NCBI GenBank assembly: GCA_963825545.1
Contig: CAWGTR010000006.1
Location: 223,475-287,474 of the forward strand
DNA: 64,000 nt
Reading direction: 5' to 3'
Source of the DNA: an uncultured Chloroflexia bacterium
Lineage (GTDB): Bacteria > Chloroflexota > Limnocylindria > Limnocylindrales > CSP1-4
Below the pieces are notes generated by a model, which saw only the letters and a list, made by a program, of their open reading frames with translations, ran no database searches and was not told the origin of the DNA. A program made the translations under genes and the position numbers. Of this stretch, positions 1,129 through 35,398 are shown in pieces. Position 1 is the stretch's first letter. Each line of letters starts with the position of its first letter.

Positions 1129-2231
1129 ATGGGTGCCGTCGAGGTCATCATCCTCCACCCGCTGCCGGGCCCGGCGAGCGGACCGCTCGAACGCGCCCTG
1201 GCTGAGACACGCGCCGAGGTAGCCGAGCGGAACCGGGCCGGGTTCGAGCCGCCGGGGCCGCCCGGGTCACGATCGTCGGCGGCGCTCCCGACGGCCGCCC
1301 GTTCGGATCCCGCCTGCCCGAGCTGCTCGCCACGGTCCGCCGCGGCCACGGGCTCGTCCTCCTGGGGTCGGGGGCGCTGCCGCTGGCGACGACCACCGAT
1401 CGCCGGGCGTTCGTCGCCGCGGCGGCCGCGGCCGCGCCTCGGGCGCTCGCGAACAACCGCTACTCCGCCGACGTCGTTGCAGTCTCCGCGTCGACGCTTC
1501 CCATCCTCGCCCGTCTGCCGCGCGAGTTCCCGGCCGACAACGCGCTGCCGCGCTGGCTGGTGGAGATCGGCGCAGTGCCGGTCGAAGACCTGCGGCGGCG
1601 CTGGCGGCTGGCGGTCGACCTCGACTCGCCACTCGATGCGATCCTCGTCGCCGCCGCCCGACGCCCGGGTCGGTCGGACCCGTACGTGCCGGCTGAGCTG
1701 GGGGACCGCGGCGAGGCCGTCGTCGCGCGGATCGAACGGCTCCGGTCGATCCTCGCGGACGCGCGCGCCGAGCTCGTCGTGGCCGGCCGGACCTCCGCGG
1801 CCACGCTCGTCTGGCTGGAGCGCTCCGCGCGCTGCCGGATCCGGGCGGTCGTCGAGGAGCGTGGCCTCCGGGCGTCGAGCCGCCTGGCGCTCGGGCCGGC
1901 CAGCCGGGCGCCGGCCCGCCGCCCACGGTCGCTCCTGGCGATGGCGCTCGAGCACGACGGCCCGGCGGCGCTCGGAGCGCGGCTCGCCGAACTCGGTGAC
2001 GGCGCACTCGTCGACACCCGGGTCCTGCTGGCCGACCGGCTTGGTGCGGACGAGGCGGCCTGGCCGCGACCGGAAGCGCGCTACGCGTCGGACCTGCTCG
2101 ATGCGACGGCCGTCGGCGAGCCGTGGCTCGCGGCCCTGACCGCAGCGGCGGCCGGCGCGACGATCCCGATCCTCCTGGGCGGCCACTCGCTTGTCGGACC
2201 GGGCATCCGGTTGATCGGTTCGCGGCGCTGA
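1129..2231 (+). CDS. hypothetical protein with an apparent -1 frameshift near nt 1245-1262
   Basis: N-terminus MGAVEVIILHPLPGPASGPLERALAETRAEVAERNRAGFEPPGPPG is in frame 1. The protein-like sequence then continues in frame 0 (RVTIVGGAPDGRPFGSRLPELLATVRRGHGLVLLGS...IPILLGGHSLVGPGIRLIGSRR*). A frame-0 stop at 1203-1205 and no ATG/GTG/TTG before 1263 mean frame 0 cannot initiate by itself. No confident family assignment. Confidence 0.4.
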
Positions 2232-2233
2232 GG

Positions 2234-3451
2234 ATGGACGGGTTCGAGGCCGGCCTGCGGCGCGTCCCCGGGCCGGAGCCGCTGCCCGTCAAGGGCGAGC
2301 CACGGCTTGTCGAGCGGATCCGCGCCGAGATCGCTTCGACCGGGCCACTGACGTTCGACCGATTCATGGAGCTCGCGCTCTACGAGCCGGATCTCGGCTA
2401 CTACCGCTCGCCGGCCGAGCGACCCGGTCGGGGTGGCGACTTCCTCACCGCGCCCGAGACGCACCCGATCTTCGGGGCGACGCTCGCCCGTCAGCTCGAC
2501 GAGGTTTACCGGCGGCTCGGCTCGCCGGGCCGGTTCGTCGTCCGCGAGTACGGCGCCGGGTCGGGGACGCTCGGACTGACGATCCTCCAGGCGATCGCCG
2601 GCGAGGGCCGTCTCGGCGAGGTCGCCGCGTCCCCGGCGCTTGCCCGGGCGATCCGCTACGCCCCGGTCGAGATCAACCCCTACCGTCGGGCAGAGCTCAT
2701 CGATCGGCTCACGGGCGCCGGGTTCGGCGGCGCCCTCGAGCTCGACCTCACGCCCGGCGTCGCCGTGCCCGGGGCGGTCGTCGCCAACGAGTTCCTCGAC
2801 GCGCTGCCGGTCCATCGCGTCGTCGGCCGGGCGGGCGGTGTGCGCGAGCTCCGGGTCGACTGGGCGGGTGACGGGTTCGCCGAGGTCGAGGCGGACCCAT
2901 CGACCCCGGCGATCGAGGCGCGGCTCGCGGCGGAGGGGATCGTGCTCGAGGACGGCATCCGGGCGGAGGTCTGTCTCGCGATCGACGGCTGGGTGGACGA
3001 AGTCGCGGCCGGCCTGGAGGGCGGGATCGTCGTCGTAATCGACTACGGCCGGGTGGCGATCGAGCTGTACGGCAGGCAGCGCCCGGCGGGCACGCTGATG
3101 GCCTACGCCGGCCATCGCGCGCACGACGATTGGGCCGTCGCCGTGGGTCGCCAGGACCTGACCGCCCACGTCGACTTCAGCGCCGTCGAGCGGGCCGCCG
3201 GCGCGGTCGGGCTCGACCAGCTGGGGCTGACCACCCAGGCCGAGTTCCTCGTCGGGGCCGGGATCGAGGAGCTGCTCGAATCGATCCGCTCCGATCCGTC
3301 GACCACGATCGAGTCCTGGCTGGCCGTCCGCTCGGCCGTCCGGCGACTGCTCGATCCGCGCGCGACCGGTGGCTTCCGCGTGGCGTTGCTCGGTCGTGGG
3401 ATCCCGATCGAGCCAGCGCTGCACGGCCTCGCCTACCGCCTCGGGCGCTGA
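2234..3451 (+). CDS. class I SAM-dependent methyltransferase, MidA/NDUFAF7 (DUF185) family
   Basis: MDGFEAGLRRVPG...LTFDRFMELALYEPDLGYYRS...GDFLTAPETHPIFGATLARQL...VVREYGAGSGTLGL... matches the MidA family. An in-frame upstream ATG at 2123 overlaps the preceding gene, so 2234 is preferred. The gene ends ~330 bp upstream of nuoA. Confidence 0.7.
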   Translation: MDGFEAGLRRVPGPEPLPVKGEPRLVERIRAEIASTGPLTFDRFMELALYEPDLGYYRSPAERPGRGGDFLTAPETHPIFGATLARQLDEVYRRLGSPGRFVVREYGAGSGTLGLTILQAIAGEGRLGEVAASPALARAIRYAPVEINPYRRAELIDRLTGAGFGGALELDLTPGVAVPGAVVANEFLDALPVHRVVGRAGGVRELRVDWAGDGFAEVEADPSTPAIEARLAAEGIVLEDGIRAEVCLAIDGWVDEVAAGLEGGIVVVIDYGRVAIELYGRQRPAGTLMAYAGHRAHDDWAVAVGRQDLTAHVDFSAVERAAGAVGLDQLGLTTQAEFLVGAGIEELLESIRSDPSTTIESWLAVRSAVRRLLDPRATGGFRVALLGRGIPIEPALHGLAYRLGR

Positions 3452-3779: not shown

Positions 3780-4136
3780 TTGACCGCCATCTGGTACGTC
3801 GTCGGGTTCGCCTTCGCCGGCGTCTCGTTCGTCCTGCTGACGATCGGCGCGGCCTGGCTGATCTCGCATCGGAACCGCGGGGACGAGCACAAGGGCCTCC
3901 CCTACGAGTCGGGGATCGACACCTTCGGCGACACCCACGGGCGGTTCGGGCTGTCGTTCTACATCTACGCCTTGCTGTTCGTGGCGTTCGACATCGAGGT
4001 GGTCTTCATCTACCTCTGGGCGATCGTCTTCCGGGATCTCCTCATCGGCGGCTTCGTGAGCATGCTCGTGTTCGTGGCGGTCCTGCTGCTCGGGCTGGCC
4101 TACGCCTGGCGGAAGGGCGTCCTCACGTGGCGCTGA
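3780..4136 (+). CDS. nuoA: NADH-quinone oxidoreductase subunit A
   Basis: Three-TM protein ...TAIWYVVGFAFAGVSFVLLTIGAAWLISHRNRGDEHKGLPYESGIDTFGD...FYIYALLFVAFDIEVVFIYLWAIVF... Preferred start is TTG 3780 (118 aa, typical NuoA length). An upstream in-frame ATG at 3687 would add a non-conserved Arg/Pro-rich leader. Confidence 0.75.
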   Translation: MTAIWYVVGFAFAGVSFVLLTIGAAWLISHRNRGDEHKGLPYESGIDTFGDTHGRFGLSFYIYALLFVAFDIEVVFIYLWAIVFRDLLIGGFVSMLVFVAVLLLGLAYAWRKGVLTWR

Positions 4137-4858
4137 AGGGCAACCCCCCGGCGGCGGACCTTCCCGCGCCGGCAGCGCCCGACGCAGCGACGAACGCGGT
4201 CGTGGTCGCCGGCGGGCGCGACCTGATCGTGCCGATCGTGGTCCCGAACACGCTCTGGGAATCGCCCACCACGGCGGCGTACGGCGGCCAGCCCGTCGGC
4301 GACACCCACCTGCGCGAGTTCGGGGCGACCGAGCTGGGGCGCCACGACGACGCCCGCTGGGGCGCCCTCGAGGTGATCCCGACGAAGGCGGACATCGTCC
4401 TCGACCTGATCCGGGCCAACAGCCTCTGGCCGCTGCTGTCGGGGCTGGCCTGCTGCGCGATCGAGATGATGTCGGCGGCGACCTCGAAGAACGACATGGA
4501 CCGCTGGGGCATGTTCCCGTTCCGGGCCAGCCCGCGCCAGGCCGACGTGCTGATCGTCGCCGGCACGCTGACGACGAAGATGGCCGGTCCGCTCATCCGC
4601 CTGTGGGAGCAGATGCCCGAGCCGAAGTGGTGTGTCGCGATGGGCGACTGCACCTGCTCGGGCGGCCGCTACAAGCGCAGCTACTCGACGATCCAGGGGA
4701 TCGACCGGGTCCTCCCGGTCGACGTCTACGTGCCCGGCTGCCCGCCCCGCCCGGAAGGGCTGATCTACGGGATGATGCGGCTCCAGCAGCTCGTCCTGGA
4801 GCGGCGCGGCCACTGGCCGGAGCGAGCGATCGGCCCGACGGTCCCGGACGGGGTCTGA
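4127..4858 (+). CDS. nuoB: NADH-quinone oxidoreductase subunit B (N2 cluster subunit)
   Basis: GTG start overlaps the nuoA stop. ...ANSLWPLLSGLACCAIEMM...DMDRWGMFPFRASPRQADVLIVAGTLTTKMAGP...KWCVAMGDCTCSGGRY...VYVPGCPPRPEGL matches NuoB, including the CC/C/C ligands. Confidence 0.85.
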   Translation: MALKGNPPAADLPAPAAPDAATNAVVVAGGRDLIVPIVVPNTLWESPTTAAYGGQPVGDTHLREFGATELGRHDDARWGALEVIPTKADIVLDLIRANSLWPLLSGLACCAIEMMSAATSKNDMDRWGMFPFRASPRQADVLIVAGTLTTKMAGPLIRLWEQMPEPKWCVAMGDCTCSGGRYKRSYSTIQGIDRVLPVDVYVPGCPPRPEGLIYGMMRLQQLVLERRGHWPERAIGPTVPDGV

Positions 4859-4863: not shown

Positions 4864-5416
4864 ATGGATCGAGCCCTCAAGCGCCGCCTCGAGGCCCGCT
4901 TCGGAGAGCGGCTGCTCGGACCCGTCCGGCAGCGCCACGACGAGACCGAGATCCGGGTCGCGCCGGGCGACCTGCCCGAGGTGATGCGCGCCCTCCACGA
5001 CGAGCCCGACCTGCGCTTCGAGTCGCTGATGGACCTGTGCGGCGTCGACACCGGGACCGCGATGCAGACGGTCTACCACCTGTGGAGCGCGCACCACCTC
5101 GGACTGGCTCCGGGTGATCGCCGACGGCCTGTCCCGCGACGAGCCTCGGGTCCCGTCGGTCACCTTCCTGTGGAAGGGCGCCGAGTGGCAGGAGCGCGAG
5201 GCGTACGACATGTTCGGGATCGCGTTCGAGGGGAACCGCGACCTGCGCCGGATCTATATGCCGCCGGACTACACGAGCTTCCCGCTGCGCAAGGACTTCT
5301 ACCTGCCCGATGACGCCGCCCGCTCGCCCGGCGGCGGTGTCCGCCAGATGGAGCAGACCCACGCCCCGACGAACGCCACGGCCGAGGCGGCCGTGCGCCG
5401 CGCCAAGGTGAGCTGA
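4864..5416 (+). CDS. nuoC: NADH-quinone oxidoreductase subunit C, with an apparent +1 frameshift near nt 5098
   Basis: N-part (frame 1): [79 protein letters not shown]-part (frame 2): [70 protein letters not shown]. Both halves are NuoC-like; the frame changes between 5097 and 5099. Confidence 0.75.
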
Positions 5417-6644: not shown

Positions 6645-7991
6645 ATGACGATGCTCAGCCGCTCGTTCGGCCGCCTGACCCTGCCGGGCAAGATCATCTT
6701 CACGGTCGTCCCCCTCGTCCTCATCGTCGGCGGGGTGGCCACGGCGGCCGCGATCATCGCCGCGCCGCTCGTCATCGACTTCGTCGGGGCGAACCTGCCG
6801 CTCTTCCGGTTCGTGCTGGCGGCGACGGTCGTGCTGCTGATGACCGTCCCGACGGCGTTCCTGATCATCTACATGGAGATGAAGGTCATCGCCCTGATGA
6901 ACCTTCGCTACGGGCCGGACCGGGTGGGCCCGTTCGGCTCGCTCCTGTCGGTCGTGCACGGGCTCAAGGTCCTGATGAAGGAGGACTTCACCCCGACCGG
7001 TGCCGACTCGGTGGTCTTCACCTGGGCGCCGGTGGTCGTCTACATGGCCAGCGTGATGACCCTGCTGGTGCTGCCGTTCGCCCCGGGCCTGTTCGGGCAG
7101 GACCTCAACATCGGGCTGCTGTACTTCTTCGCGATGGGCGGGCTGGGCGTCGTCGGGCTGCTCATGGCCGGCTGGTCGAGCTTCAACAAGTACTCGCTGC
7201 TCGGCGGGCTGCGCTCGGCGGCGCAGGTCGTCAGCTACGAGATTCCGCTGACCCTGTCGGTCGTCGGGATCATCCTCCTTGCCGGGACCCTGAGCCTCAA
7301 CAAGATCACGCTCGACCAGTCCGGCAGCCTGTTCGACTGGTTCGTGTTCAAGCAGCCGCTGGCGTTCCTCATCTTCTTCATCGCCGCTACGGCCGAGGCC
7401 AACCGGACGCCGTTCGACCTGACCGAGGCCGACTCGGAGATCGTGGCCGGGTTCGCCACCGAGTACTCGGGGATGCGCTTCGGGTTCTTCTTCTTCGCCG
7501 AGTACGTGAACGTGTTCATCATCTCGGGGCTCACCGTCGCGCTCTTCTTCGGCGGCTGGAACGCCCCGTTCGACTGGCCCTGGCCGATCACGCCGCACCC
7601 GGATCCGGGCGGCATGGGGGTCGGCCTGCTCGTCGCCATCGGGCTCGTGCCGCCGATCCTGATCCTCGTCCTCGGGCTGCCGTTCTATCTCGTCAACAGC
7701 CGGACGAAGCTGTGGCAGGCCCTGGTGATCGGGTTCGTCCTGTTCAACGTCCTCGCGGTCGCCGCGCTCATCGGGCTTGCCTTCCTCAGCTTCGACTGGG
7801 TCGTCGGCCTGTTCTGGTTCCTGATGAAGACGTACGCCTTCGTGTTCATGTTCGTCTGGATGCGCGGCACGCTGCCGCGGGTCCGGATCGACCAGCTCAT
7901 GGGCTTCGCCTGGAAGTGGCTGCTGCCCGCCTCGCTGCTCAACCTGTTCGTGACCGCCCTGGCGATCGTGCTCGTCGAGGGCGTTCGATGA
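6645..7991 (+). CDS. nuoH: NADH-quinone oxidoreductase subunit H
   Basis: 448 aa polytopic membrane protein; ATG immediately follows the nuoD TAG. NuoH/ND1 motifs ...MNLRYGPDRVGPFGSLLSVVHGLKVLMKEDF...GWSSFNKYSLLGGLRSAAQVVSYEIP... Confidence 0.9.
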   Translation: MTMLSRSFGRLTLPGKIIFTVVPLVLIVGGVATAAAIIAAPLVIDFVGANLPLFRFVLAATVVLLMTVPTAFLIIYMEMKVIALMNLRYGPDRVGPFGSLLSVVHGLKVLMKEDFTPTGADSVVFTWAPVVVYMASVMTLLVLPFAPGLFGQDLNIGLLYFFAMGGLGVVGLLMAGWSSFNKYSLLGGLRSAAQVVSYEIPLTLSVVGIILLAGTLSLNKITLDQSGSLFDWFVFKQPLAFLIFFIAATAEANRTPFDLTEADSEIVAGFATEYSGMRFGFFFFAEYVNVFIISGLTVALFFGGWNAPFDWPWPITPHPDPGGMGVGLLVAIGLVPPILILVLGLPFYLVNSRTKLWQALVIGFVLFNVLAVAALIGLAFLSFDWVVGLFWFLMKTYAFVFMFVWMRGTLPRVRIDQLMGFAWKWLLPASLLNLFVTALAIVLVEGVR

Positions 7992-8001
7992 GCGCCGGGC
8001 G

Positions 8002-8664
8002 ATGACGTTCGTCCCGGGCCTTGGCCTCGTCAAGGGGATGGCGCTGACCCTGCGCCGCTTCTTCGAGCCGAAGGTGACGAACCTGTACCCGGAGGTCCCC
8101 GCCCAGATCCCGCCCAAGTTCCGCGGCCGGCTGCAGCTCCTGTACGACGAGTGGGGCACGCTCAAGTGCGAGACCTGCTTCCAGTGCGCCCAGGCCTGCC
8201 CGATCGAGTGCATCGACATGGGCGGTACCGACACCAAGGGCCGTTACGCCGTCCACTGGGGGGCGCCCGAGACGTACGGCGAACGGCGCGAGGAGTCGGC
8301 CCTCCGGCGGTCGGGCCGGACCGTGCCCGACCCCGCTTACGAGCACTTCCACGGGATCGATCTGGCGGCCGTGGATGCCGTTCTCGACGAGGTCGACCAC
8401 GATCCGCGCGAGATGCTCCGGATCCTGGCCGCGATCCAGGACGCGTACGGCTACGTACCCGTGGCCGCGCTCAAGCGGGTCAGCGAGGCGACCGGCGCGT
8501 GGTACGCGATGCTGTATGGCACGGCGACCTACTACGACCACCTCGCGGTCGGGGCACGGGAGACGGCGCCGAGCGCCGACGACGCCTACGTCGGAGCGCT
8601 CGAGGGGGCCCTCCACGGTGGCATCGACGACGGGGCGGCGAGCCGGGACGCGGGCGCCCGATGA
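8002..8664 (+). CDS. fusion protein: NuoI N-terminal half (single CxxCxxCxxxCP motif) joined to a NuoE-like N-terminal helical domain lacking the [2Fe-2S] cysteines
   Basis: Residues 1-75: LYPEVPAQIPPKFRGRLQLLYDEWGTLKCETCFQCAQACPIECIDM is the NuoI N-terminus plus first ferredoxin motif; no second CxxCxxCxxxCP follows in any frame. Residues ~120-175: REMLRILAAIQDAYGYVPVAALKRVSEATGAWYAMLYGTATYYDHL resemble the NuoE N-domain. The protein ends 40 aa later with no Cys. The stop overlaps the next ATG (ATGA). Confidence 0.65.
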   Translation: MTFVPGLGLVKGMALTLRRFFEPKVTNLYPEVPAQIPPKFRGRLQLLYDEWGTLKCETCFQCAQACPIECIDMGGTDTKGRYAVHWGAPETYGERREESALRRSGRTVPDPAYEHFHGIDLAAVDAVLDEVDHDPREMLRILAAIQDAYGYVPVAALKRVSEATGAWYAMLYGTATYYDHLAVGARETAPSADDAYVGALEGALHGGIDDGAASRDAGAR

Positions 8665-10004
8665 CCGGCCTCCTGAAGACTCCGACCGGCTGGCCGAAGG
8701 TCCTCATCGAGTCGCCCCAGGCCGTCGACCCGACCGACCTCGATCGAGCCGTCCGCGATGGCGCCTTCGAGGCGCTCCGGACCGCGGTCCGGGCGATGAC
8801 CCCGAGCCAGGTCATCGGGGCGGTGGTCGGCTCCGGCCTGCGCGGTCGCGGCGGCAGCGGCTTCCCGACCGGGGCGAAGTGGCGGGTCGCGGCGAGCGCC
8901 CCCGGACCCACCCGCTACGTCGTCGCCAACGGCTACGGCGCCGACCCGGCGGTCCAGACCGACCGGACGCTCATGGAGCTGGCCCCGTATGCCGTGGTCG
9001 AGGGGGTCGCCCTGGCGGCCTATGCGATCGGGGCCGGCGAGGCGATCATTGCCGTCCGGGCCGATGCCGCCGAGGCGATCCGCCGGCTTGACGCGGCGAT
9101 CGGCGCCGCCGAGGAGGCCGGCTTCGCGGGGCCCGACGTCCTGGAGTCCGGCTGGGACCTGTCGATCCAGGTCCGCCCCGTCCAGGGTGCCTACATGCTC
9201 GGCGAGGAGACCGTCCTGCTCAAGGCGCTCGAGGGCAAGCGGGGCCAGCCCGAGCAGCGGCCGCCGCACCCGGCGGAGCGCGGGCTGTTCGGCCGCCCGA
9301 CGGTCGTCGACAACGTCCAGACCCTGGCGAGCGTGCCCTGGATCGTCCGCAACGGACCCGAGGCATACGCCGCGATCGGCTCGACGGCGAGCCCAGGGAC
9401 GATCCTCGTCCAGCTCCGCGCGCCGGCCGGCGGTGGGATCGCCGAGGTGCCGCTCGGGACCCCGCTCCGGGAGCTCATCGCGCTCGCCGGCCCGCGGGCC
9501 GGCCGATCGGACGGCGGCCGGCCGGTCAAGGCGGTCCTCGTCGGCGGACCCGCGGGTGGGTTCCTGCCGGCGGACCTGCTCGACACGCCGTTCGACTTCG
9601 AGTCGCTCCGCGACGTCGGGGCGCACGTCGGATCCGGCTCCATCGTCGTCGCCGACGACCGGGCCTGCGTCGTCGACCTGGCCCGGCTGCTCAGCCGCTT
9701 CTGCGCCGATCAGGCCTGTGGCAAGTCGATCCCCTGCCGGATCGGCACCCGTCGCCTGTCCGAGATCGCCGACCGGATCGCGGTCGGCACGCCGCGCCCG
9801 ACCGATGCCGGGCTGGCCGCCGACCTGGCCGCCGACATCCAGGGTTCCGGCCTGTGCGACCACGAGCGGCTGGCGACGCTGCCGATGACCAGCGCGATGC
9901 GATACTTCCGTGCCGAGCTCGACGACCATCTCCTCCGCAGCACCTGCCCCGCCGGCGTCTGCCACCCGATCAAGGTGGCCGTCGGGGCCGACCGAGGCGC
10001 TTGA
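8661..10004 (+). CDS. NuoF-like (51-kDa) subunit homolog with divergent FMN/NADH and N3-cluster motifs
   Basis: 447 aa. SGLRGRGGSGFPTGAKW and GAYMLGEETVLLKALEGKRGQPEQRPPHPAERGLFGRPTVVDNVQT align to NuoF. The YLVCNADEGEPGT motif is replaced by YVVANGYGADPAV. The Cys region reads FCADQACGKSIPCRIGT...GLCDH instead of ESCGKCTPCREG...C. Confidence 0.75.
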   Translation: MTGLLKTPTGWPKVLIESPQAVDPTDLDRAVRDGAFEALRTAVRAMTPSQVIGAVVGSGLRGRGGSGFPTGAKWRVAASAPGPTRYVVANGYGADPAVQTDRTLMELAPYAVVEGVALAAYAIGAGEAIIAVRADAAEAIRRLDAAIGAAEEAGFAGPDVLESGWDLSIQVRPVQGAYMLGEETVLLKALEGKRGQPEQRPPHPAERGLFGRPTVVDNVQTLASVPWIVRNGPEAYAAIGSTASPGTILVQLRAPAGGGIAEVPLGTPLRELIALAGPRAGRSDGGRPVKAVLVGGPAGGFLPADLLDTPFDFESLRDVGAHVGSGSIVVADDRACVVDLARLLSRFCADQACGKSIPCRIGTRRLSEIADRIAVGTPRPTDAGLAADLAADIQGSGLCDHERLATLPMTSAMRYFRAELDDHLLRSTCPAGVCHPIKVAVGADRGA

Positions 10005-12640
10005 TGACCGACCTGATCGTCCGACCCGAAGGCGCCCCGCCCGCCGAGCCGGGCGTCGCCGAGACCCTCGCGGAGCGACTGCTCGACGTGTCGGCGCCGC
10101 AGCGCCCGATGAGCGCCCCGGTGATCCGGATCGAGGTCGACGGGCGGGTCGTCGAGGGTCGCGACGGCCAGACGATCCTCGAGGTCTGCCGCGACAACGG
10201 GATCGAGGTCCCGACGCTGTGCTACGAGCCGAAGCTGCCCGGCTTCGGCGCCTGCCGGATGTGCGTCGTCGAGGTCGAGGGCGAAGAGCACCCGCCGATC
10301 AGCTGCTCGCGCGCGGCAGAGGCCGGCATGAAGGTCCAGACCCAGACCGACGAGGTGCGCCGCCTGCGGGCCACGAACCTCGAGCTGATCTTCAGCGACC
10401 ACAACGCCTACTGCCTGCCGCCCTGCCAGAACAAGTGCCCGAGCCACATCGACATTCCCGGCTTCCTCAAGCAGAACGCCGAGGGCGAGTGGCGCGAGTC
10501 GACCCGGATCTTCAAGCGGACGATCCCCTTCCCGAGCGTGCTCGGACGGGTCTGCCCGGCGCCGTGCGAGGAGCACTGCCGGCGCGACGAGGTCGATGAG
10601 GCGATCGCCATCCGTGACAGCCACCGCTACGCCGGGGACCAGGTCATCAAGGCGATGCTCGACGACGGGATCGACCCGCCGCTGCCATTCGAGCCCCAGC
10701 CGAAGACGGGTCGCCGGGCGGCCGTCATCGGGTCCGGCCCGGCCGGGATGAGCGCCGCCTACTACCTCCTCCTGGCCGGTCACGACGTGACCGTCTTCGA
10801 GCGCGACCCGGCGCCCGGCGGGATGCTCCGCTACGGGATCCCGCAGTACCGGCTCCCGAAGATCGAGGTCCTCGAGGCGGAGTACGAGTCGGTCAGCCGG
10901 CTGGGCGGGAAGATCGTATGCAACCAGGCCCTCGGGCGCGACTTCACCCTCGACGACCTCCAGGGCCAGGGCTACGACGCCGTCCTGGTGGCGATCGGCT
11001 GCTACGACACGAACAAGCTGGGCATCCCGAACGAGGACGCCGACGGCGTCATCGACGGCCTCGAATACCTCCAGACGGCCACCCTCGGCCTGCCCTACCC
11101 CGGGCACCGCGGGAAGCGCGTCGTCGTGATCGGCGGGGGGTTCACCTCGATGGACTGCTCGCGGACGTCGATCCGCCAGGGTGCCGCCGAGGTGACCCTC
11201 GTCTATCGCCGGGACATGAAGGACATGCCCGCCTCGAACGAGGTCCACGAGGCGATCGAGGAAGGCGTCCAGGCGATCTTCCAGGCCGCCCCGACGCGGG
11301 TCATCGTCGACGAGAAGACCGGCCGGGTGAGCGGCGTCGAGTTCATCCGCAACAAGCTCGGCGAGCCCGACGCGTCGGGCCGGCGGCGGCCCGAGCCGTC
11401 GCCCGGCACGGAGTTCACAATCGATTGCGACCGGGTCCTCCTGGCGATCGGCCAGGGCCCCGACCTGACCTGGATCGGGCCGGGCTCGGAGGGTCCCGAG
11501 GCGACGAAGCAGCGCCGGCTGAAGGCCGACCCGGTGACGTTCGAGACCGGACGGCCCGGCGTGTTCGGGACCGGCGACGTGCGGGTCGGCGCGGCCACCG
11601 TCGTCCAGGCGATCGCCGAGGGCCGCCGGGCGTCGTACGCCGCGGACGCCTACCTGCGTGGGATGGACCTCGGGACGATCCGGGCCCGCCAGACGCTCGC
11701 CGAGCCGCAGCCCGAGTTCCTGTCGATCGTGCCATTTACGAGCGAGGTCAAGGAACCCCGCTACCGGCTCAAGGCGATGGACGCCGAGGTCCGCAACAAG
11801 AGCTACCTCGAGTACGAGATCCCGTACACCCCCGCGGAGGCGGTCGCGGAGTCGACCCGCTGCCTGCAGTGCACCTGCGAGGCGATTGGGTTCTGCGACC
11901 TGCGCCGGCTCGGAATCGAGTACGGGACGACACTGCGCACGCTCGAGCCGCAGTTCCACCAGGGCGCGGGCTACCGGAGCGTCACCGAGAACCGCTTCAC
12001 CGGGATCAACCACGACTACGTGCGCGACGACAGCCACGCCTTCATCCTCCGCGAGCCGTCGCGCTGCATCGACTGCGGCCGCTGCGCCCAGGTCTGCTCC
12101 GAGGTCGTCGGGGCCGCCTGCTACGACTTCATGCGGATCGGCTTCGACACGCTCGTGACGACCCCGCTCGACATGAGCCTCAACGACACCCCGTGCGTGT
12201 CCTGTGGGCGCTGCGCCGAGACCTGCCCGACCGGGGCGCTGATGCCGAAGCCACGGGTGCTCGAGAAGTACGAGGTCGACGAGAGCCGCTGCATCCTGTG
12301 CGGGATCTGCGTCGATGCCTGTCCGTACGACGCCCTCCGCGACGGCGCCGACTTCGAGCTCAGCCACGTCGATCGCTCCGAGCCGATGGTCGACCTGATC
12401 GCCCTGGCGGCCATCGACCGGGAGACGGAGGCGACCTACATCCGCCGCGAGCGCGACTGGGTCGCCCGCGCCACCGCCGCCGGGCGTCCACCGGATCCGT
12501 CGCGCCTCCTGCCGGTCCTGCCGCCATCCGTCACCGGGGGCGGGGCGGGCCTGGCCGCCGCGCGCCACGGAGAGCGAACGGGCGGCAACGGCGCCTCCGG
12601 CAACGGCGCGGCCGGCGCCGGCCACGCCCATCACGAGTAG
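10004..12640 (+). CDS. multidomain Fe-S flavoprotein: NuoG-like N-terminal [2Fe-2S] domain, inserted GltD-like NAD(P)H:FAD oxidoreductase (glutamate synthase small-subunit fold), NuoG-like N5/N4 cluster region, and a C-terminal 2x[4Fe-4S] NuoI-like ferredoxin domain; no molybdopterin domain
   Basis: 878 aa. ATG overlaps the preceding stop (TGATG). 2Fe-2S pattern CYEPKLPGFGACRMCVVEVEGEEHPPISC (C-x10-C-x2-C-x13-C). The GltD block CLPPCQNKCPSHIDIPGF...GRVCPAPCEEHC...AAVIGSGPAGMSAAYYL...GIPNEDADGV...GKRVVVIGGGFTSMDCSRTSIRQGA...GEPDASGRRRPE...FGTGDVRVGAATVVQAIAEGRRAS aligns closely to E. coli GltD. Then LRRLGIEYG...SRCIDCGRCAQVCSEVVG...TCPTGAL (NuoG N4-like), then CVSCGRCAETCP and CILCGICVDACPYDAL...DFE (NuoI-like). 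Confidence 0.8.
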   Translation: MTDLIVRPEGAPPAEPGVAETLAERLLDVSAPQRPMSAPVIRIEVDGRVVEGRDGQTILEVCRDNGIEVPTLCYEPKLPGFGACRMCVVEVEGEEHPPISCSRAAEAGMKVQTQTDEVRRLRATNLELIFSDHNAYCLPPCQNKCPSHIDIPGFLKQNAEGEWRESTRIFKRTIPFPSVLGRVCPAPCEEHCRRDEVDEAIAIRDSHRYAGDQVIKAMLDDGIDPPLPFEPQPKTGRRAAVIGSGPAGMSAAYYLLLAGHDVTVFERDPAPGGMLRYGIPQYRLPKIEVLEAEYESVSRLGGKIVCNQALGRDFTLDDLQGQGYDAVLVAIGCYDTNKLGIPNEDADGVIDGLEYLQTATLGLPYPGHRGKRVVVIGGGFTSMDCSRTSIRQGAAEVTLVYRRDMKDMPASNEVHEAIEEGVQAIFQAAPTRVIVDEKTGRVSGVEFIRNKLGEPDASGRRRPEPSPGTEFTIDCDRVLLAIGQGPDLTWIGPGSEGPEATKQRRLKADPVTFETGRPGVFGTGDVRVGAATVVQAIAEGRRASYAADAYLRGMDLGTIRARQTLAEPQPEFLSIVPFTSEVKEPRYRLKAMDAEVRNKSYLEYEIPYTPAEAVAESTRCLQCTCEAIGFCDLRRLGIEYGTTLRTLEPQFHQGAGYRSVTENRFTGINHDYVRDDSHAFILREPSRCIDCGRCAQVCSEVVGAACYDFMRIGFDTLVTTPLDMSLNDTPCVSCGRCAETCPTGALMPKPRVLEKYEVDESRCILCGICVDACPYDALRDGADFELSHVDRSEPMVDLIALAAIDRETEATYIRRERDWVARATAAGRPPDPSRLLPVLPPSVTGGGAGLAAARHGERTGGNGASGNGAAGAGHAHHE

Positions 12641-12652: not shown

Positions 12653-13204
12653 GTGCCGATCCCGGACACGATCCCGGTCATCGGGGCGACTTGGAACGAC
12701 GCCCTGTTCGTGATCTTCGCCGGGATCCTCCTCGGATCCGGGCTGCTCGTCGTCACCCTCCGCGACATCATCCGCTGCGGGCTGGCGATGATCGTCTGCT
12801 TCGGCGCCCTGGCCGGCATCTACGTCATCCTCGGCGCACCGCTCATCGCCGGGGCCCAGGTGCTCGTCTACATCGGCGCGATCAGCGTGCTCATCCTGTT
12901 CGCCATCATGCTCACCCAGACGAAGGCCGCCCCGGCCCGCCTCGTGTTCCAGACCCAGGCGGTCCCGGCGGCGATCGCCGCGCTCGTCCTGGCAGTGATC
13001 CTCGCGCTCGTGGTCGTGTCGACGGACTGGGGTGCCGCGGCGGCGGTCGCGCGGACGGCGACGGACGACATGGCCCGCCTCCTGTTCCACGACTATGTCC
13101 TGCCGTTCGAGGTCGTGAGCGTCCTGCTCCTCGCGGCGGTCGTCGGCGGGGTCTACCTTGCCAAGCGCGAGGTCGACGCGACCGAGGAGCGCGGCCCGCG
13201 ATGA
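12653..13204 (+). CDS. nuoJ: NADH-quinone oxidoreductase subunit J
   Basis: GTG start 9 nt after a GGAGG Shine-Dalgarno. 183-aa membrane protein ...FVIFAGILLGSGLLVVTLRDIIRCGLAMIVCFGALAGIYVILGAPLIAGAQVLVYIGAISVLILFAIM... Confidence 0.85.
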   Translation: MPIPDTIPVIGATWNDALFVIFAGILLGSGLLVVTLRDIIRCGLAMIVCFGALAGIYVILGAPLIAGAQVLVYIGAISVLILFAIMLTQTKAAPARLVFQTQAVPAAIAALVLAVILALVVVSTDWGAAAAVARTATDDMARLLFHDYVLPFEVVSVLLLAAVVGGVYLAKREVDATEERGPR

Positions 13205-15491: not shown

Positions 15492-17039
15492 ATGGGCGAC
15501 CTGACCATCCCGCTGCTCAGCGCGATCACCTTCACGCCGCTCGTCGGGGCGCTGGTCATCGCGGTCGTCCCGCGCACCGCCGAACGGGCGATCCGCTGGA
15601 TCGCGCTGGCGACGTCGCTGATCGCGTTCGGGCTGTCGCTCGTGCTGCTGGCGGCGTTCGACCCGCTCAAGCCGGGCTTCTCGTTCGTCGAGCAGGTGGA
15701 CTGGATCCCCGTCTTCGGGATCCAGTACAAGGTCGGGGTCGACGGCCTGTCGGCCGTGCTCGTGGTGCTCACGACGACGCTGTCGTGGATCAGCATCCTC
15801 GCCTCGTTCGGGCCGATCCACGAGCGGATCAAGGAGTACATGATCTCGTTCCTGATCCTCGAGGTCGGCCTGATCGGCGTGTTCGTGGCGCTCGACCTGT
15901 TCCTGTTCTACGTGTTCTGGGAGGTCGTCCTCGTCCCGATGTACCTGATCATCGGGATCTGGGGCGGCTCAAACCGGGTGTACGCGACGATCAAGTTCGT
16001 GCTGTACACGCTCGTCGGGTCGCTGCTGATGCTGGTCGCGATCCTGGCCACGGCCTTCACCTACCAGTCGGCGACCGGCAGCTGGGACCACGCCTTCGAC
16101 TTCGAGTACCTGCGCAGCTTCGCCGCGACAGTCGGGTTCGCGAATGGGCTCCAGGTGTTCGCGTTCCTGGCCTTCTTCCTCGCCTTCGCGATCAAGGTCC
16201 CCATGTTCCCGTTCCACACCTGGCTGCCGGATGCCCACGTCGAGGCCCCGACGGCCGGGTCGGTGATCCTCGCGGCGATCATGCTCAAGCTCGGCGCCTA
16301 CGGGTTCATCCGCTTCGCGGTGCCGCTGTTCCCCGATGCGGCCCACACGTTCGCGGTACCGATCATCGTGCTCAGCCTCATCGCGATCATCTATGGCGCG
16401 GTCGTCGCCCTCGTCCAGCCCGACCTCAAGAAGCTCATCGCCTACTCGTCGGTCAGCCACATGGGCTTCGTGACCCTCGGGATCTTCGTGTTCCAGCAGC
16501 AGGGCCTGCAGGGGGCGATCCTGCAGATGGTCAACCACGGGCTGATCACCGGGGCCCTGTTCCTCCTGGTCGGGGTGATCTACGAGCGGACCCACGACCG
16601 GACGATCGCCAGGATGGGCGGGCTGTCGGGCCGAACTCCGGTGTACGCCGCCGCATTCGGCTTCTTTGTCTTCGCCAGCGCCGGGCTGCCCGGGCTGTCC
16701 GGGTTCGTCGGCGAGTTCCTGGTGCTGGTCGGGACCTTCGCGGCCAGCCCGTACGCCGCGGCCATCGCCACGTTCTGCATGATCCTGGCGGCCGGCTACC
16801 TGCTCTGGATGTTCCAGCGCGTCTTCACGGGCGAGCTGTCCGACTTCCTGGCCGGCCTCGGCCAGCACCTGACCGACATCCGTCCGATCGAGATCGCGAC
16901 GCTCGCCCCGCTCGGGGCGATGATCGTCGTGTTCGGGCTCTTCCCCGGCCTCCTCCTGACGATCATCCAGGGCACCGTGGCGACCTTCACCGCGAGCGTC
17001 GGCGCCCACGACGTCGCCGTCCACCTGATGGTCCGGTAG
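15492..17039 (+). CDS. nuoM: NADH-quinone oxidoreductase subunit M
   Basis: 515 aa; ...FLFYVFWEVVLVPMYLIIGIWGG...FPFHTWLPDAHVEAPTAGSVILAAIMLKLGAYGFIRF... Confidence 0.9.
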   Translation: MGDLTIPLLSAITFTPLVGALVIAVVPRTAERAIRWIALATSLIAFGLSLVLLAAFDPLKPGFSFVEQVDWIPVFGIQYKVGVDGLSAVLVVLTTTLSWISILASFGPIHERIKEYMISFLILEVGLIGVFVALDLFLFYVFWEVVLVPMYLIIGIWGGSNRVYATIKFVLYTLVGSLLMLVAILATAFTYQSATGSWDHAFDFEYLRSFAATVGFANGLQVFAFLAFFLAFAIKVPMFPFHTWLPDAHVEAPTAGSVILAAIMLKLGAYGFIRFAVPLFPDAAHTFAVPIIVLSLIAIIYGAVVALVQPDLKKLIAYSSVSHMGFVTLGIFVFQQQGLQGAILQMVNHGLITGALFLLVGVIYERTHDRTIARMGGLSGRTPVYAAAFGFFVFASAGLPGLSGFVGEFLVLVGTFAASPYAAAIATFCMILAAGYLLWMFQRVFTGELSDFLAGLGQHLTDIRPIEIATLAPLGAMIVVFGLFPGLLLTIIQGTVATFTASVGAHDVAVHLMVR

Positions 17040-17046: not shown

Positions 17047-18519
17047 ATGAGCTCGCAGGAACTCCTCACGATCGCCCCGCTCGTGACGGCCATCCTGGTA
17101 GCCGCGGCGGTCATCGTCGTCGACCTCGTACGGCCCGGCGCGCGCACCGAGCCACTCGTCGTCGCGCTGGTCGGGCTGGCGATCGTCGCCGCGGTCACGG
17201 TCGTGTCCGGGGCGAACCCGGGCGACGCCTTCGGCGGCGCCTACCGGGTGGACGCGCTGACGACGCTGCTCGACCTGCTGTTCGTCGCGATCATCGCCTT
17301 CACGCTGCTCTTCGCGCCCGACTACCTGGCGGCCCGGAACCTGCCGCTGGCCGAGTTCGCGGCCGTGCTCGTGTTCGCGATGACCGGGGCGATGCTCATC
17401 TCCGCGTCGATGGACCTGCTCGTGCTCTTCCTCGGGCTCGAGTTGATGGTCCTGCCAGGCTACCTGCTGGCCGGGTTCGCCAAGCGCGACTCGCTGTCGA
17501 CGGAAGGCGCGATCAAGTACTTCCTCCTCGGCTCGTTCAGCTCGGCGATCTTCCTGTTCGGGCTGTCGTTCGTCTGGGGCCTCACCGGGTCGACCCGGAT
17601 CGCCGCGGTCGCGTCGAGCCTCGGCGCGGTGGTCGCGGGCACCGCGCCGCTGTCCCCGGGGCTGGCAATGGGGCTCGCGTTCCTGACGACCGGCGTGGCG
17701 TTCAAGATCGCCGCGGTGCCGTTCCACTACTGGACGCCGGACGCCTACCAGGGCTCGCCCACGCCGGTCACCGGCTACCTGTCGGTCGGCCCCAAGATCG
17801 GCGCCTTCGCGCTGATCCTGCGCCTGTTCGTGGGCGCCCTCGGTCCGCTCCACGCCGACTGGCTGGTGGTGATCGTGATCCTGTCGACGATCACGATGAC
17901 GCTCGGCAACTTCGTGGCCATCACCCAGGACAACGTCAAGCGGATGCTCGCCTACTCGTCGATCGCGCACACGGGCTACATGCTCGTCGGGCTGGCCGCC
18001 TGGGCGAGCCCGAACTCGCGCATCGAGGGCATCGAGGGCCTGCTCTTCTACGCGGTCGCCTACAGCTTCATGAACCTCGGCGCGTTCGCCGTCGTGGCCG
18101 CGCTCCAGCGCCGGCGCGGGGTCACCAGCAGCATCGACACGTTCGCCGGCCTCGGCGCCCGCGAGCCCGCGCTGGCGATCCTGATGACCCTGTTCCTGCT
18201 GTCCCTGACCGGGATCCCGCCGACGGCCGGCTTCTTCGCCAAGGCGTTTGTGATCCTGGCCGGCGTCGAAGCCGGTGGGGCGGCGGCCGTGCTGGCGGTC
18301 ATCGCAGTGCTCAACGCCGCGGTCGCCGCGTTCTACTACCTGCGCGTCGTCGTCTACATGTTCATGCGCGACGCCAAGGGCGAGCCGGTGCCCCTCGAGA
18401 AGAGCGGCATCCTGCGGGTGGGCCTCGCCGGCACGGCGTTCCTGACGATCGTCCTCGGGCTGTTCCCCGGAGCGCTCGTCCAGGTCGTCGAGAACGCCGC
18501 GCGCGCCCTCGTCTCCTAG
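17047..18519 (+). CDS. nuoN: NADH-quinone oxidoreductase subunit N
   Basis: 490 aa; ...VPFHYWTPDAYQGSPTPVTGYLSVGPKIGAFALILRLF... matches the NuoN/ND2 family. It is the last gene of the operon; a convergent gene ends 34 bp downstream. Confidence 0.9.
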   Translation: MSSQELLTIAPLVTAILVAAAVIVVDLVRPGARTEPLVVALVGLAIVAAVTVVSGANPGDAFGGAYRVDALTTLLDLLFVAIIAFTLLFAPDYLAARNLPLAEFAAVLVFAMTGAMLISASMDLLVLFLGLELMVLPGYLLAGFAKRDSLSTEGAIKYFLLGSFSSAIFLFGLSFVWGLTGSTRIAAVASSLGAVVAGTAPLSPGLAMGLAFLTTGVAFKIAAVPFHYWTPDAYQGSPTPVTGYLSVGPKIGAFALILRLFVGALGPLHADWLVVIVILSTITMTLGNFVAITQDNVKRMLAYSSIAHTGYMLVGLAAWASPNSRIEGIEGLLFYAVAYSFMNLGAFAVVAALQRRRGVTSSIDTFAGLGAREPALAILMTLFLLSLTGIPPTAGFFAKAFVILAGVEAGGAAAVLAVIAVLNAAVAAFYYLRVVVYMFMRDAKGEPVPLEKSGILRVGLAGTAFLTIVLGLFPGALVQVVENAARALVS

Positions 18520-35396: not shown

Positions 35397-35398
35397 GG

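What the first reader, a model, noticed from the sequence alone, without database searches (positions are those of the whole stretch)
8002..8664. Half-NuoI fused to a cysteine-less NuoE N-domain
The 220-aa product has only one CxxCxxCxxxCP motif, whereas a functional NuoI needs two because each cubane takes its fourth ligand from the partner motif. Its NuoE-like part stops before the thioredoxin-like [2Fe-2S] domain, so cluster N1a is missing. The second NuoI-type motif pair and tail sit at the C-terminus of the 878-aa protein two genes downstream. This implies either a trans-complemented NuoI or loss of one of the N6 clusters. I checked all three frames for a hidden second motif and found none.
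Basis: seen in the sequence. Interest (0 to 1): 0.6.

Follow-up and report, generated by a model that had tools for sequence, protein, structure and literature searches.

The report
Split NuoI in variant complex I
In this soil and freshwater Chloroflexota lineage, an NAD(P)H-oxidising gene module sits inside the complex I gene nuoI. The two halves of that iron-sulfur subunit are therefore made as parts of two different proteins, which must come together to bind its two clusters.

Summary
ORF 8002-8664 is an intact, conserved gene. Its product has the N-terminal half of NuoI, with one CxxCxxCxxxCP motif, then a conserved linker and the helical N-domain of NuoE. It has no thioredoxin-like [2Fe-2S] domain.

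The missing NuoI half is residues about 746-800 of the 878-aa protein at 10004-12640. The two halves match complementary parts of the NuoI model TIGR01971 (positions 1-65 and 71-116). Joined in silico, they align to that model and to solved NuoI/TYKY chains as one ungapped stretch (E 1e-30 and 2e-23).

The split is not an artefact:
- At least 401 matching stretches occur in species-representative genomes, nearly all named Chloroflexota or Limnocylindria.
- All 80 fetched loci keep the order nuoD-H-[I'E']-F-[G''I]-J-L wherever the contig reaches.
- All eight Cys are invariant, and dN/dS is about 0.2 on both halves.

The inserted genes resemble the soluble NfnABC/StnABC transhydrogenase (NuoE-like, NuoF-like, and a 2Fe-2S/GltD/ferredoxin protein). 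They lack the clusters that published structural work treats as required for bifurcation.

My best reading is a trans-assembled NuoI in a working NAD(P)H:quinone complex I. I found no description of it in the searchable literature. The trans-assembly itself is inferred, not shown.

The parts
3780..4124 (+). nuoA (approximate limits)
   Evidence: tblastn with the L088 NuoA, 80% identity
4133..4858 (+). nuoB with an N-terminal extension of about 80-100 aa. The N2 ligands are present (ACCAIEM, GDCTCSGG, PGCPP).
   Evidence: Pfam and NCBIfam NuoB matches; translation; tblastn
4864..5407 (+). nuoC, read in two frames. A 1-nt insertion at about 5091 relative to the 97%-identical locus L001 shifts the frame.
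   Evidence: tblastn gives aa 1-75 in frame 1 and aa 75-181 in frame 2; blastn against L001
5427..6644 (+). nuoD. It has the complex-I-type N-terminus (GPQHPSTHGVLR) and no NiFe cysteines.
   Evidence: Pfam PF00346; translation
6645..7991 (+). nuoH
   Evidence: Pfam PF00146, E 2e-104
8002..8664 (+). The finding: the 'IE' gene, a fusion of the NuoI N-half, a linker and the NuoE N-domain (220 aa)
8002..8256 (+). NuoI N-terminal half (aa 1-85): N-terminal helix, the YPE..RGR region and the single CxxCxxCxxxCP motif (nt 8167-8202)
   Evidence: TIGR01971 positions 1-65; E. coli NuoI 7awt_I residues 23-86; Cys 56/59/62/66 invariant; dN/dS about 0.22
8257..8361 (+). Conserved linker (aa 86-120, HWGAPETYGERREESALRRSGR.VPD). 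It has no family match.
   Evidence: Lowest dN/dS in the gene, about 0.08; strongly conserved columns; AlphaFold2 pLDDT below 50
8362..8556 (+). NuoE/NfnC-type helical N-domain (aa 121-185) with no cysteines
   Evidence: PF01257 positions 2-58 of 145; AlphaFold2 pLDDT 85-97; Foldseek match to 9bp5_C (NfnC) at rmsd 1.0 A over 64 columns and 38% identity
8557..8661 (+). Variable Ala/Gly/Asp-rich tail (aa 186-220). It occupies the place of the lost thioredoxin-like [2Fe-2S] domain.
   Evidence: dN/dS about 0.69; relatives P0355 and P0379 (about 70% identical) still carry a partly degenerate Trx-like domain here
8661..10004 (+). nuoF-like/NfnB-core flavoprotein (447 aa). It lacks the extra Bfu cluster domains. 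Its N3 motif is CGKSIPC plus a conserved upstream Cys348, and its FMN loop is NGYGADP.
   Evidence: TIGR01959 E 4e-103; 9bov_B E 7e-112, covering only residues 106-525 of 584; motif conservation
10004..12640 (+). NfnA/StnC-like 878-aa protein that ends in the NuoI C-half
   Evidence: 9bov_A E 5e-165, 9n5u_A E 4e-144, 8oh5_C E 2e-143; Pfam Fer2_4, Fer4_20, Pyr_redox_2, Fer4
10118..10408 (+). [2Fe-2S] N-terminal domain (aa 39-135; Cys 73, 84, 87, 101)
   Evidence: PF13510; Cys 100% conserved
10409..11683 (+). GltD/NfnL-like FAD and NAD(P)H domain with its Fe-S cysteines (aa 136-560)
   Evidence: PF14691 + PF07992; NF009454 E 4e-162; dN/dS about 0.16
11984..12238 (+). HydA/NuoG/NfnA-type 2x[4Fe-4S] ferredoxin domain (aa 661-745; motifs at aa 688 and 731)
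   Evidence: PF22117, and TIGR02512 positions 2-77; aligned with the 9bov_A motifs; almost invariant, dN/dS about 0.06
12239..12403 (+). NuoI C-terminal half (aa 746-800): [33 protein letters not shown], with the motif at nt 12290-12325
   Evidence: TIGR01971 positions 71-116, E 3e-12 for the isolated tail, and NuoI/NdhI models take the nine best ranks; Cys 763/766/769/773 invariant; dN/dS about 0.19
12653..13204 (+). nuoJ
   Evidence: PF00499
13201..13509 (+). nuoK
   Evidence: tblastn with the L088 NuoK, 81% identity
13517..18519 (+). nuoL, nuoM and nuoN (to 15487; 15492-17039; 17047-18519)
   Evidence: PF00361, PF00662; tblastn

Best explanation
The window carries a variant respiratory complex I operon from a Chloroflexota (class Limnocylindria) genome. 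A three-gene cassette related to the NfnABC/StnABC transhydrogenase lies inside nuoI and is fused in frame at both ends. The cassette encodes a NuoE-like protein, a NuoF-like protein and a 2Fe-2S/GltD/ferredoxin protein. The gene order is A-B-C-D-H-[I(N)::E(N)]-F-[NfnA-like::I(C)]-J-K-L-M-N.

Inferred mechanism:
- The two NuoI halves associate in the assembled enzyme and rebuild the 2x[4Fe-4S] ferredoxin fold.
- Each of clusters N6a and N6b takes three Cys from one polypeptide and the fourth from the other.
- The two fusions tie the electron-input module to the quinone module from both sides.
- Electrons enter at the GltD-type FAD site (probably from NADPH) and perhaps also at the modified NuoF flavin site (NADH).
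- They pass along the Fe-S chain of the 878-aa protein into the split NuoI, then to N2 in NuoB, then to quinone, driving proton pumping.

The enzyme is probably not bifurcating. The NuoE [2Fe-2S] cluster and the extra NuoF-subunit clusters, which published structural work treats as required for bifurcation, are absent.

What is shown: the domain anatomy, the complementarity of the halves, conservation, synteny and purifying selection.
What is inferred: physical trans-assembly, cluster occupancy, nucleotide specificity and the direction of electron flow.
For: Complementary halves:
- On TIGR01971, IE matches positions 1-65 and the 878-aa protein matches positions 71-116.
- The rejoined sequence gives one stretch over positions 1-116 at 105.5 bits, E 1.2e-30. 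It also gives single-stretch alignments to E. coli NuoI (E 1.9e-23) and plant TYKY (E 2.4e-23).
- For the isolated tail, NuoI/NdhI models take the nine best ranks, ahead of generic ferredoxin models.

Not an artefact:
- GC3 is continuous across the ORF.
- More than 120 protein clusters are 66-100% identical and 215-250 aa long.
- At least 401 relatives occur in species-representative genomes.
- Synteny is identical in every locus that is long enough.
- IE always has exactly 1 motif and the G protein always has exactly 3. All cluster Cys are 100% conserved.
- dN/dS is about 0.22 for the NuoI N-half and about 0.19 for the C-half.

The split is older than this clade:
- IE proteins at 27-33% identity sit in nuoH-IE-F-G contexts.
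- Their G proteins all end in ...CPTGAL..R.LE.Y.LD.S.CI.C..CV..CP..AL.

Module identity:
- The best solved relatives are Csac NfnABC (9bov), T. sibiricus NfnABC (9n5u) and S. ovata StnABC (8oh5).
- The NuoF-like protein covers only the core of NfnB and has no ferredoxin motifs.
- The bifurcation requirement for clusters B2-B5 and C1 is taken from PMC11829005 and PMC9304861.

The Q-module looks functional. The NuoB N2 cysteines and the NuoD N-terminal motif are present.
Against: - No structural or biochemical evidence shows that the halves meet. Multimer or chimera modelling was not possible.
- The single-chain AlphaFold2 models of both halves had low confidence and say nothing either way.
- Neither half, nor the rejoined sequence (105.5 bits), reaches the TIGR01971 cut-off of 113.05.
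- I could not check whether these genomes hold a second, intact nuoI or a second complex I.
- nuoC in this window carries a frameshift. This particular copy could be defective, or the assembly could contain indel errors.
- The NuoF flavin loop and N3 motif deviate from the canonical forms, so the NADH site may be altered or inactive.
- NADPH use by the GltD domain rests only on homology to NfnA.
Confidence: 0.72

Rival explanations
1. Only one N6-type cluster, or none, survives. The IE half-motif is a structural relic that anchors the N-module to NuoH and NuoB. Electrons pass from the G-protein clusters to N2 through a shortened chain.
For: A single polypeptide cannot build either cubane. Other parts of the module are clearly decaying. 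The NuoE Trx domain is lost and the NuoF N3 and FMN motifs are altered. The rejoined NuoI stays just below the family cut-off.
Against: Loss of one cluster should free three Cys of one motif and one Cys of the other. All eight Cys and both Pro are invariant in 80 and 57 sequences, and in lineages about 30% identical. dN/dS is about 0.2 on both halves. Removing N6a or N6b would leave a gap in the canonical chain that is long for electron transfer; this last point is from established complex I structures and was not computed here.
Confidence: 0.1
2. The operon is an accessory or decaying copy. The organism respires through another, canonical complex I or NDH-2, so the split NuoI has little physiological importance.
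For: nuoC is frameshifted in this window. Limnocylindria also carry a second, distant IE-type cluster (about 239 aa; locus L087), so paralogous systems exist. Whole genomes could not be scanned.
Against: The closest relative, L001, has an intact nuoC at the same site. The whole 13-gene order is kept in at least 80 species-level genomes with strong purifying selection. No intact nuoI occurs in 1.53 Mb of fetched flanks.
Confidence: 0.1
3. The enzyme is an electron-confurcating or bifurcating 'Nuo-Bfu'-type complex, or it runs in reverse to make NADPH from quinol at the expense of proton-motive force.
For: The module is homologous to bifurcating NfnABC/StnABC. Bfu modules inside nuo clusters have been proposed for Geobacter and others (PMC9304861). 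Two nucleotide-type sites are wired to one Fe-S chain.
Against: The NuoF-like subunit lacks the domains that hold clusters B2-B5, and IE lacks cluster C1. These clusters are treated as required for bifurcation in PMC11829005 and PMC9304861. No ferredoxin-binding C-terminal domain is present.
Confidence: 0.08

Closest known systems
Canonical NuoI / Nqo9 / TYKY (NDUFS8) of complex I
   Same: The N-terminal helix, the YPE..RxRG region, both CxxCxxCxxxCP motifs and the post-motif ...FE.. stretch all align without gaps when the halves are joined. The gene position, between nuoH and nuoJ, is kept.
   Different: The fold is encoded on two polypeptides, broken in the loop between the motifs. The N-half is fused to a NuoE domain and the C-half to an NfnA-like protein. 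About 3.9 kb of other coding sequence separates the halves.
NfnABC / StnABC (Bfu-family NADH-dependent ferredoxin:NADP+ transhydrogenase; PDB 9bov, 9n5u, 8oh5)
   Same: The three-part organisation and gene order are the same: NuoE-like, NuoF-like, then a 2Fe-2S + GltD-like + ferredoxin protein. These are also the best sequence and structure matches.
   Different: The module is embedded in a nuo operon. The NfnC [2Fe-2S] domain is absent, as are the N- and C-terminal cluster domains of NfnB. The Fdh-like C-terminal domain of NfnA is replaced by the NuoI C-half.
'Nuo-Bfu' complexes proposed by Schut et al. 2022 (PMC9304861)
   Same: A Bfu-related E/F/G-type module sits in the middle of a complex I gene cluster in place of canonical NuoEFG.
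   Different: Those clusters are described as 14 separate subunits with a full bifurcating BfuB, in Deferribacteres, Proteobacteria, Planctomycetes and Nitrospirae. The paper does not contain the words 'fused' or 'fusion', and it does not describe a split NuoI or a GltD-type BfuA in Nuo-Bfu.
11-subunit complex I (nuoABCDHIJKLMN), reported in Chloroflexi among others (PMC3144371)
   Same: Removing the inserted cassette and rejoining nuoI gives exactly this gene order.
   Different: Here an electron-input module has been added by insertion within a gene, not as separate genes or a separate partner protein.
Mbx-like clusters in which a GltD-related flavoprotein replaces NuoI (Degli Esposti 2015, PMC4758237)
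   Same: A GltD-type NAD(P)H flavoprotein is coupled to a complex-I-like module.
   Different: There the flavoprotein is said to substitute for NuoI. Here NuoI is kept, but split.

Membership tests
NuoI (TIGR01971 / PRK05888; Nqo9/TYKY) | Two CxxCxxCxxxCP motifs in one polypeptide, binding N6a and N6b | tested here: not met
   IE has one motif in all 80 sequences. The second lies in another protein.
NuoI (TIGR01971 / PRK05888; Nqo9/TYKY) | Score above the curated family cut-off (113.05 bits) | tested here: not met
   N-half 51.7 bits, C-half 46.2 bits, rejoined sequence 105.5 bits.
NuoI (TIGR01971 / PRK05888; Nqo9/TYKY) | Full-length collinear homology, including the N-terminal region and the post-motif tail | tested here: met
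   The rejoined halves cover model positions 1-116 of 121 in one stretch. They also align in one stretch to 7awt_I, 7ar7_I and 2fug_9.
NuoI (TIGR01971 / PRK05888; Nqo9/TYKY) | Two [4Fe-4S] clusters actually bound, lying between the NuoG chain and N2 | not testable with these tools
   This needs a multimer model with cofactors, EPR or cryo-EM.
NuoE / PF01257 thioredoxin-like [2Fe-2S] ferredoxin | N-terminal helical domain that docks on NuoF | tested here: met
   PF01257 positions 2-58; AlphaFold2 pLDDT 85-97; rmsd 1.0 A to NfnC 9bp5_C.
NuoE / PF01257 thioredoxin-like [2Fe-2S] ferredoxin | Four Cys (Cx4C...Cx3C) in a thioredoxin-like domain that binds N1a | tested here: not met
   The protein ends at aa 220 with no Cys after residue 70. 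Distant relatives P0240 and P0243 keep all four Cys. P0355 and P0379 keep a partial set.
Bfu-type NfnABC/StnABC | BfuA with 2Fe-2S, a GltD/NfnL-like FAD-NADP(H) domain and a ferredoxin domain | tested here: met
   9bov_A E 5e-165 over residues 40-795; all cluster Cys conserved.
Bfu-type NfnABC/StnABC | BfuB with additional clusters B2-B5, and BfuC with cluster C1 (the bifurcating core) | tested here: not met
   The NuoF-like protein is 447 aa and covers only residues 106-525 of NfnB. It has no ferredoxin motifs. IE lacks the C1 domain. The criteria come from PMC11829005 and PMC9304861.
Respiratory complex I (Nuo) | Q-module and P-module genes with N2 ligands and a NuoD quinone-site N-terminus | tested here: met
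   nuoA, B, C, D, H, J, K, L, M and N are all present. The NuoB CC..C..CP ligands and the NuoD GPQHPSTHG motif are present. Caveat: nuoC is frameshifted in this copy.
Respiratory complex I (Nuo) | NADH:quinone oxidoreductase activity coupled to proton translocation | not testable with these tools
   No cultured representative or biochemical data were found.

The most novel reading that the evidence does not exclude
This would be a natural heterodimeric 2x[4Fe-4S] ferredoxin fold. An NfnABC/StnABC-type operon was inserted into nuoI of an 11-subunit complex I, producing an enzyme in which both N6 clusters bridge two polypeptides. A GltD-type flavin site then lets NADPH, possibly together with NADH, feed a proton-pumping complex I. 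The arrangement would be ancestral to a large part of Chloroflexota. It later diversified into versions with a NuoF::GltD fusion, versions with a short NuoG::NuoI-C protein, and clusters with no membrane-arm genes in the 20.7 kb fetched.
Probability: 0.4. Interest if true: 0.8.

Novelty: new variant of a known kind. Interest (0 to 1): 0.66.

Why it matters
NuoI is one of the most conserved core subunits of complex I, from bacteria to mitochondria. I know of no other case where it is encoded in two pieces.

- If the halves assemble as inferred, this is a natural case of a bacterial-type diferredoxin fold built from two chains, with every cluster ligated across the interface. That bears on the old idea that this fold arose from a half-sized ancestor. 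It is also relevant to protein design.
- It shows a concrete route by which an 11-subunit complex I could gain an electron-input module: insertion of a soluble flavoprotein operon into a gene, with in-frame fusions acting as tethers.
- It suggests that members of an abundant, uncultured soil and freshwater class may respire NADPH directly through a proton pump. That would change how their energy budgets are modelled.
- Current annotation labels the two proteins 'ferredoxin', 'NAD(P)H-dependent oxidoreductase subunit E' or 'formate dehydrogenase major subunit'. Pathway tools will therefore score nuoI, nuoE and nuoG as missing in these genomes.

Tried and rejected
- **Chimera modelling.** I tried to model a chimera of the IE N-half, a linker and the G-tail with AlphaFold2.
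- **AlphaFold2 of IE with a 34-sequence alignment.** Only the N-terminal helix and the NuoE domain were confident. The NuoI half and the linker had pLDDT below 50. At first I read this as dependence on a partner.
- **AlphaFold2 of the G C-terminal 226 aa.** This was poor everywhere (mean pLDDT 43.5), including the complete HydA-type ferredoxin domain. Low confidence is therefore a general failure on these cluster domains with shallow alignments. I draw no conclusion from it, including from the IE result above.
- **Source contig.** An exact-sequence look-up of the window's IE protein found no contig.
- **Third homologue search.** I searched with the ferredoxin + NuoI-C region to widen the taxonomy. 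It returned mostly 130-270-aa fragments or internal-start gene calls, with few names.
- **Literature.** Searches on Limnocylindria + complex I, NuoI/NuoE/fusion/GltD, NuoI/split/Chloroflexi, Bfu/NuoI/NuoH, and NfnABC/StnABC + complex I found no description of a split NuoI. This library lacks most subscription journals, so absence is weak evidence.
- **Alternative motif pairing.** I considered that motifs 731 and 763 of the G protein (32 residues apart) form one ferredoxin domain, leaving motif 688 as the orphan. I rejected this. Motifs 688 and 731 are 43 residues apart and align with the two motifs of NfnA. Motif 763 and its flanks score best against NuoI models.
- **Frameshift or pseudogene origin.** I rejected this for the IE ORF on GC3, synteny and conservation.
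Full report
**1.

The ORF at 8002-8664 (+) translates to 220 aa. The window is 71% G+C. Third-position G+C stays at 0.87-1.00 in this frame from 7990 to 8620 and then switches to the next gene's frame, so there is no internal frameshift.

The product has one CxxCxxCxxxCP motif (aa 56-67). A six-frame scan of the whole 64-kb window finds only four CxxCxxCxxxC motifs. One is this one, and three are near the C-terminus of the protein encoded at 10004-12640.

NuoI models match only the first half of the protein (TIGR01971 positions 1-65 of 121; NF004536 positions 13-86 of 180). The NuoE model PF01257 matches only its positions 2-58 of 145. Solved NuoI chains align to residues 9-81, and NuoE-type chains to residues 118-181. 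No cysteine follows residue 70, so the ligands of cluster N1a are absent.

**2. The other half of NuoI**

The 878-aa protein has the following parts:
- an N-terminal [2Fe-2S] domain;
- a GltD/NfnL-type flavoprotein domain;
- a CxxCxCx5C site;
- a HydA/NuoG-type ferredoxin domain with two motifs 43 residues apart (aa 688 and 731);
- a third motif in the context [33 protein letters not shown].

That last stretch (aa 751-796) matches TIGR01971 positions 71-116, which is the part missing from the 220-aa protein. When the tail is scanned alone, NuoI and NdhI models take the nine best ranks, ahead of generic ferredoxin models.

I joined residues 1-80 of the first protein to residues 748 onwards of the second. 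The result is one continuous match to TIGR01971 positions 1-116 (105.5 bits, E 1.2e-30). The halves alone score 51.7 and 46.2 bits, and the curated cut-off is 113.05. The joined sequence also gives single-stretch alignments to E. coli NuoI (E 1.9e-23), plant TYKY (E 2.4e-23) and T. thermophilus Nqo9, with no gap at the junction. The break falls in the loop between the two cluster motifs.

In fact only the last of the three motifs is NuoI-like.

**3. It is a conserved architecture, not a remnant**

- The 220-aa protein has more than 120 close clusters (66-100% identity, nearly all 215-250 aa). Sources name them 'ferredoxin' or 'NAD(P)H-dependent oxidoreductase subunit E', and the organisms named are Candidatus Limnocylindrales and Chloroflexota.
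Of the 80 loci fetched, all but one are named Chloroflexota, Chloroflexia, Limnocylindria/Limnocylindrales or another Chloroflexota group. The exception, L021, is labelled Candidatus Polarisedimenticolia.
- Every locus that is long enough has the order nuoD, nuoH, IE, nuoF-like, G protein with a contiguous NuoI tail, nuoJ, nuoL.
- All 80 IE sequences have exactly one motif, and all 57 complete G proteins have exactly three.
- Every cluster cysteine is 100% conserved, and residues 660-790 of the G protein are almost invariant.
- Nei-Gojobori dN/dS against 8-9 relatives is about 0.22 for the NuoI N-half and 0.19 for the C-half. It is 0.06 for the ferredoxin domain, 0.16 for the GltD domain, 0.35 for the NuoF-like protein and 0.69 for the IE tail. 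Synonymous rates are uncertain at this G+C bias, so I treat these ratios as rough.

**4. The split is older than this clade, and cluster N1a was lost later**

Relatives only 27-33% identical also fuse a one-motif NuoI half to NuoE and also sit after nuoH.
- Some keep a complete NuoE with all four cysteines (P0240, P0243).
- Relatives about 70% identical to the window protein keep a partly degenerate thioredoxin-like domain (P0355, P0379).
- Others, like the window, have lost it.

In all of these lineages the G-type protein ends with the same ferredoxin-domain-plus-NuoI-C arrangement.

The module varies between lineages. In L082 the GltD domain is fused to the NuoF-like protein (1048 aa), and a short 265-aa NuoG-like protein carries the NuoI C-half.

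The flavin loop and the N3 motif of the NuoF-like protein are canonical where NuoE keeps its cluster (L081, L082). They diverge where it has not. In the window's clade the loop reads NGYGADP and N3 reads CGKSIPC, with an invariant upstream Cys348.

**5. What the inserted module is**

The best solved relatives of all three products are the electron-bifurcating transhydrogenases:
- Caldicellulosiruptor NfnABC (9bov/9bp5; E 7e-112 for the NuoF-like protein, 5e-165 for the G protein);
- Thermococcus NfnABC (9n5u);
- Sporomusa StnABC (8oh5).

The modelled NuoE domain superposes on NfnC at 1.0 A over 64 columns.

The NuoF-like protein covers only residues 106-525 of NfnB, so it lacks the domains that hold clusters B2-B5. 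IE lacks the domain that holds cluster C1. Published structural work treats these clusters as necessary for bifurcation (PMC11829005, PMC9304861).

In NfnA an Fdh-like domain follows the ferredoxin domain. Here the NuoI C-half takes its place.

If the cassette is removed and nuoI rejoined, the operon has the 11-subunit order nuoABCDHIJKLMN, a form reported for Chloroflexi (PMC3144371). The simplest history, which is an inference, is that an stnABC/nfn-type operon was inserted into nuoI with in-frame junctions.

**6. Mechanism**

Shown:
- The two proteins carry complementary, conserved halves of NuoI.
- The genes overlap or nearly abut (the ATGA overlap at 8661-8664 and the shared base at 10004).
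- The Q- and P-module genes are present, with the N2 ligands and a complex-I-type NuoD.

Inferred:
- The halves rebuild the diferredoxin fold in trans, with each cluster ligated by three Cys from one chain and one from the other.
- Electrons from the GltD-type FAD site, and perhaps from the altered NuoF flavin site, flow through the G-protein clusters into N6a/N6b, then N2, then quinone.
- The GltD-type site probably uses NADPH, by homology with NfnA. The aligned stretch ...YRR...MPA is shared.
- The two fusions act as tethers.

**7. Rivals and caveats**

- Loss of one N6 cluster is disfavoured by the invariance of all eight cysteines.
- An accessory or decaying operon is disfavoured by conservation, but I could not scan whole genomes for another nuoI.
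- nuoC in this window has a 1-nt insertion relative to a 97%-identical relative. This may be an assembly indel.
- A bifurcating role is disfavoured by the missing clusters.
- No modelling of the interface was possible.
- The single-chain models of the two halves were uninformative.

**8. Novelty**

Bfu-type modules inside nuo clusters ('Nuo-Bfu') and GltD-type flavoproteins attached to complex-I-like modules have been described (PMC9304861, PMC4758237). I found no report of a split NuoI, of these two fusions, or of an Nfn-type module in complex I. The library I could search is incomplete.

I rate this a new variant of a known kind, with interest about 0.66.

Noticed in passing
window 4864-5407 (about 5088-5091): nuoC reads in two frames. 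A 1-nt insertion (GAGCGCGCACC against GAGCGC-CACC) relative to the 97%-identical locus L001 shifts the frame. It is either an assembly indel or a real inactivating mutation. A second 1-nt difference lies at about 4854, at the end of nuoB.
   Followed up: partly
window 2000-3451 (+); also L087 14338-15441: A Methyltransf_28 (PF02636) gene lies just upstream of the nuo operon. From memory, not tested here, this is the family of the complex I assembly factor NDUFAF7/MidA. The same family lies directly after the G-like gene in the distant cluster L087, which suggests a conserved link with these complexes.
   Followed up: partly
L087 8228-14341 (GCA_041643075.1): A second, distant IE family (about 239 aa, about 30% identical, also named Limnocylindria) sits in a cluster of only NuoB, NuoD, IE, a NuoF-like protein and a G-like protein. 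No nuoA, C, H or J-N genes lie in the 20.7 kb fetched. NuoD is complex-I-type with no NiFe cysteines. It could be a soluble enzyme, or it could use membrane subunits encoded elsewhere.
   Followed up: partly
L082 2076-6023 (Logan SRR22388304): This is another version of the split-NuoI operon. A 1048-aa protein fuses a Trx-like 2Fe-2S domain, NuoF and GltD. A 265-aa short NuoG-like protein ends in the NuoI C-half. The operon is flanked by nuoH-IE (with a full NuoE) and nuoJKLMN.
   Followed up: partly
L085 6481-17865 (GCA_016190715.1, Chloroflexi): Here nuoABCDH-IE-F-G is followed by a flavin reductase, a small ferredoxin and 2-oxoacid:ferredoxin oxidoreductase genes, not by nuoJ-N.
   Followed up: no
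window 9702-9737 and 9855-9857 (NuoF-like aa 348-359 and 399): The N3 motif is C348-x4-C353-x2-S356-x2-C359 ... C399. The canonical second Cys is Ser, and an upstream Cys348 is 100% conserved in 71 sequences. This may be a re-wired ligand set. The FMN loop NGYGADP replaces the canonical NADEGDPG and is also conserved.
   Followed up: partly
window 8257-8361 (IE aa 86-120): The linker between the NuoI half and the NuoE domain (HWGAPETYGERREESALRRSGR.VPD) is the most constrained part of the gene (dN/dS about 0.08). It matches no family and was not modelled with confidence. Its role is unexplained.
   Followed up: partly
L045 (IE and nuoF region, from 10001): In this locus the IE reading frame continues without a stop into the NuoF-like protein (673 aa), which may be a natural IE-NuoF fusion. 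L006, L055 and L059 also show long ORFs here, but these look like indel artefacts.
   Followed up: no
window 4133-4370 (nuoB 5' part): NuoB carries an N-terminal extension of about 80-100 aa rich in Ala and Pro. The relative L088 has the same extension (its NuoB is 266 aa).
   Followed up: no
window 29952-35546 (-): A very long open frame (up to 1864 aa) has protein O-mannosyltransferase (PMT, PMT_4TMC) domains in its C-terminal third. It is unrelated to the finding.
   Followed up: no
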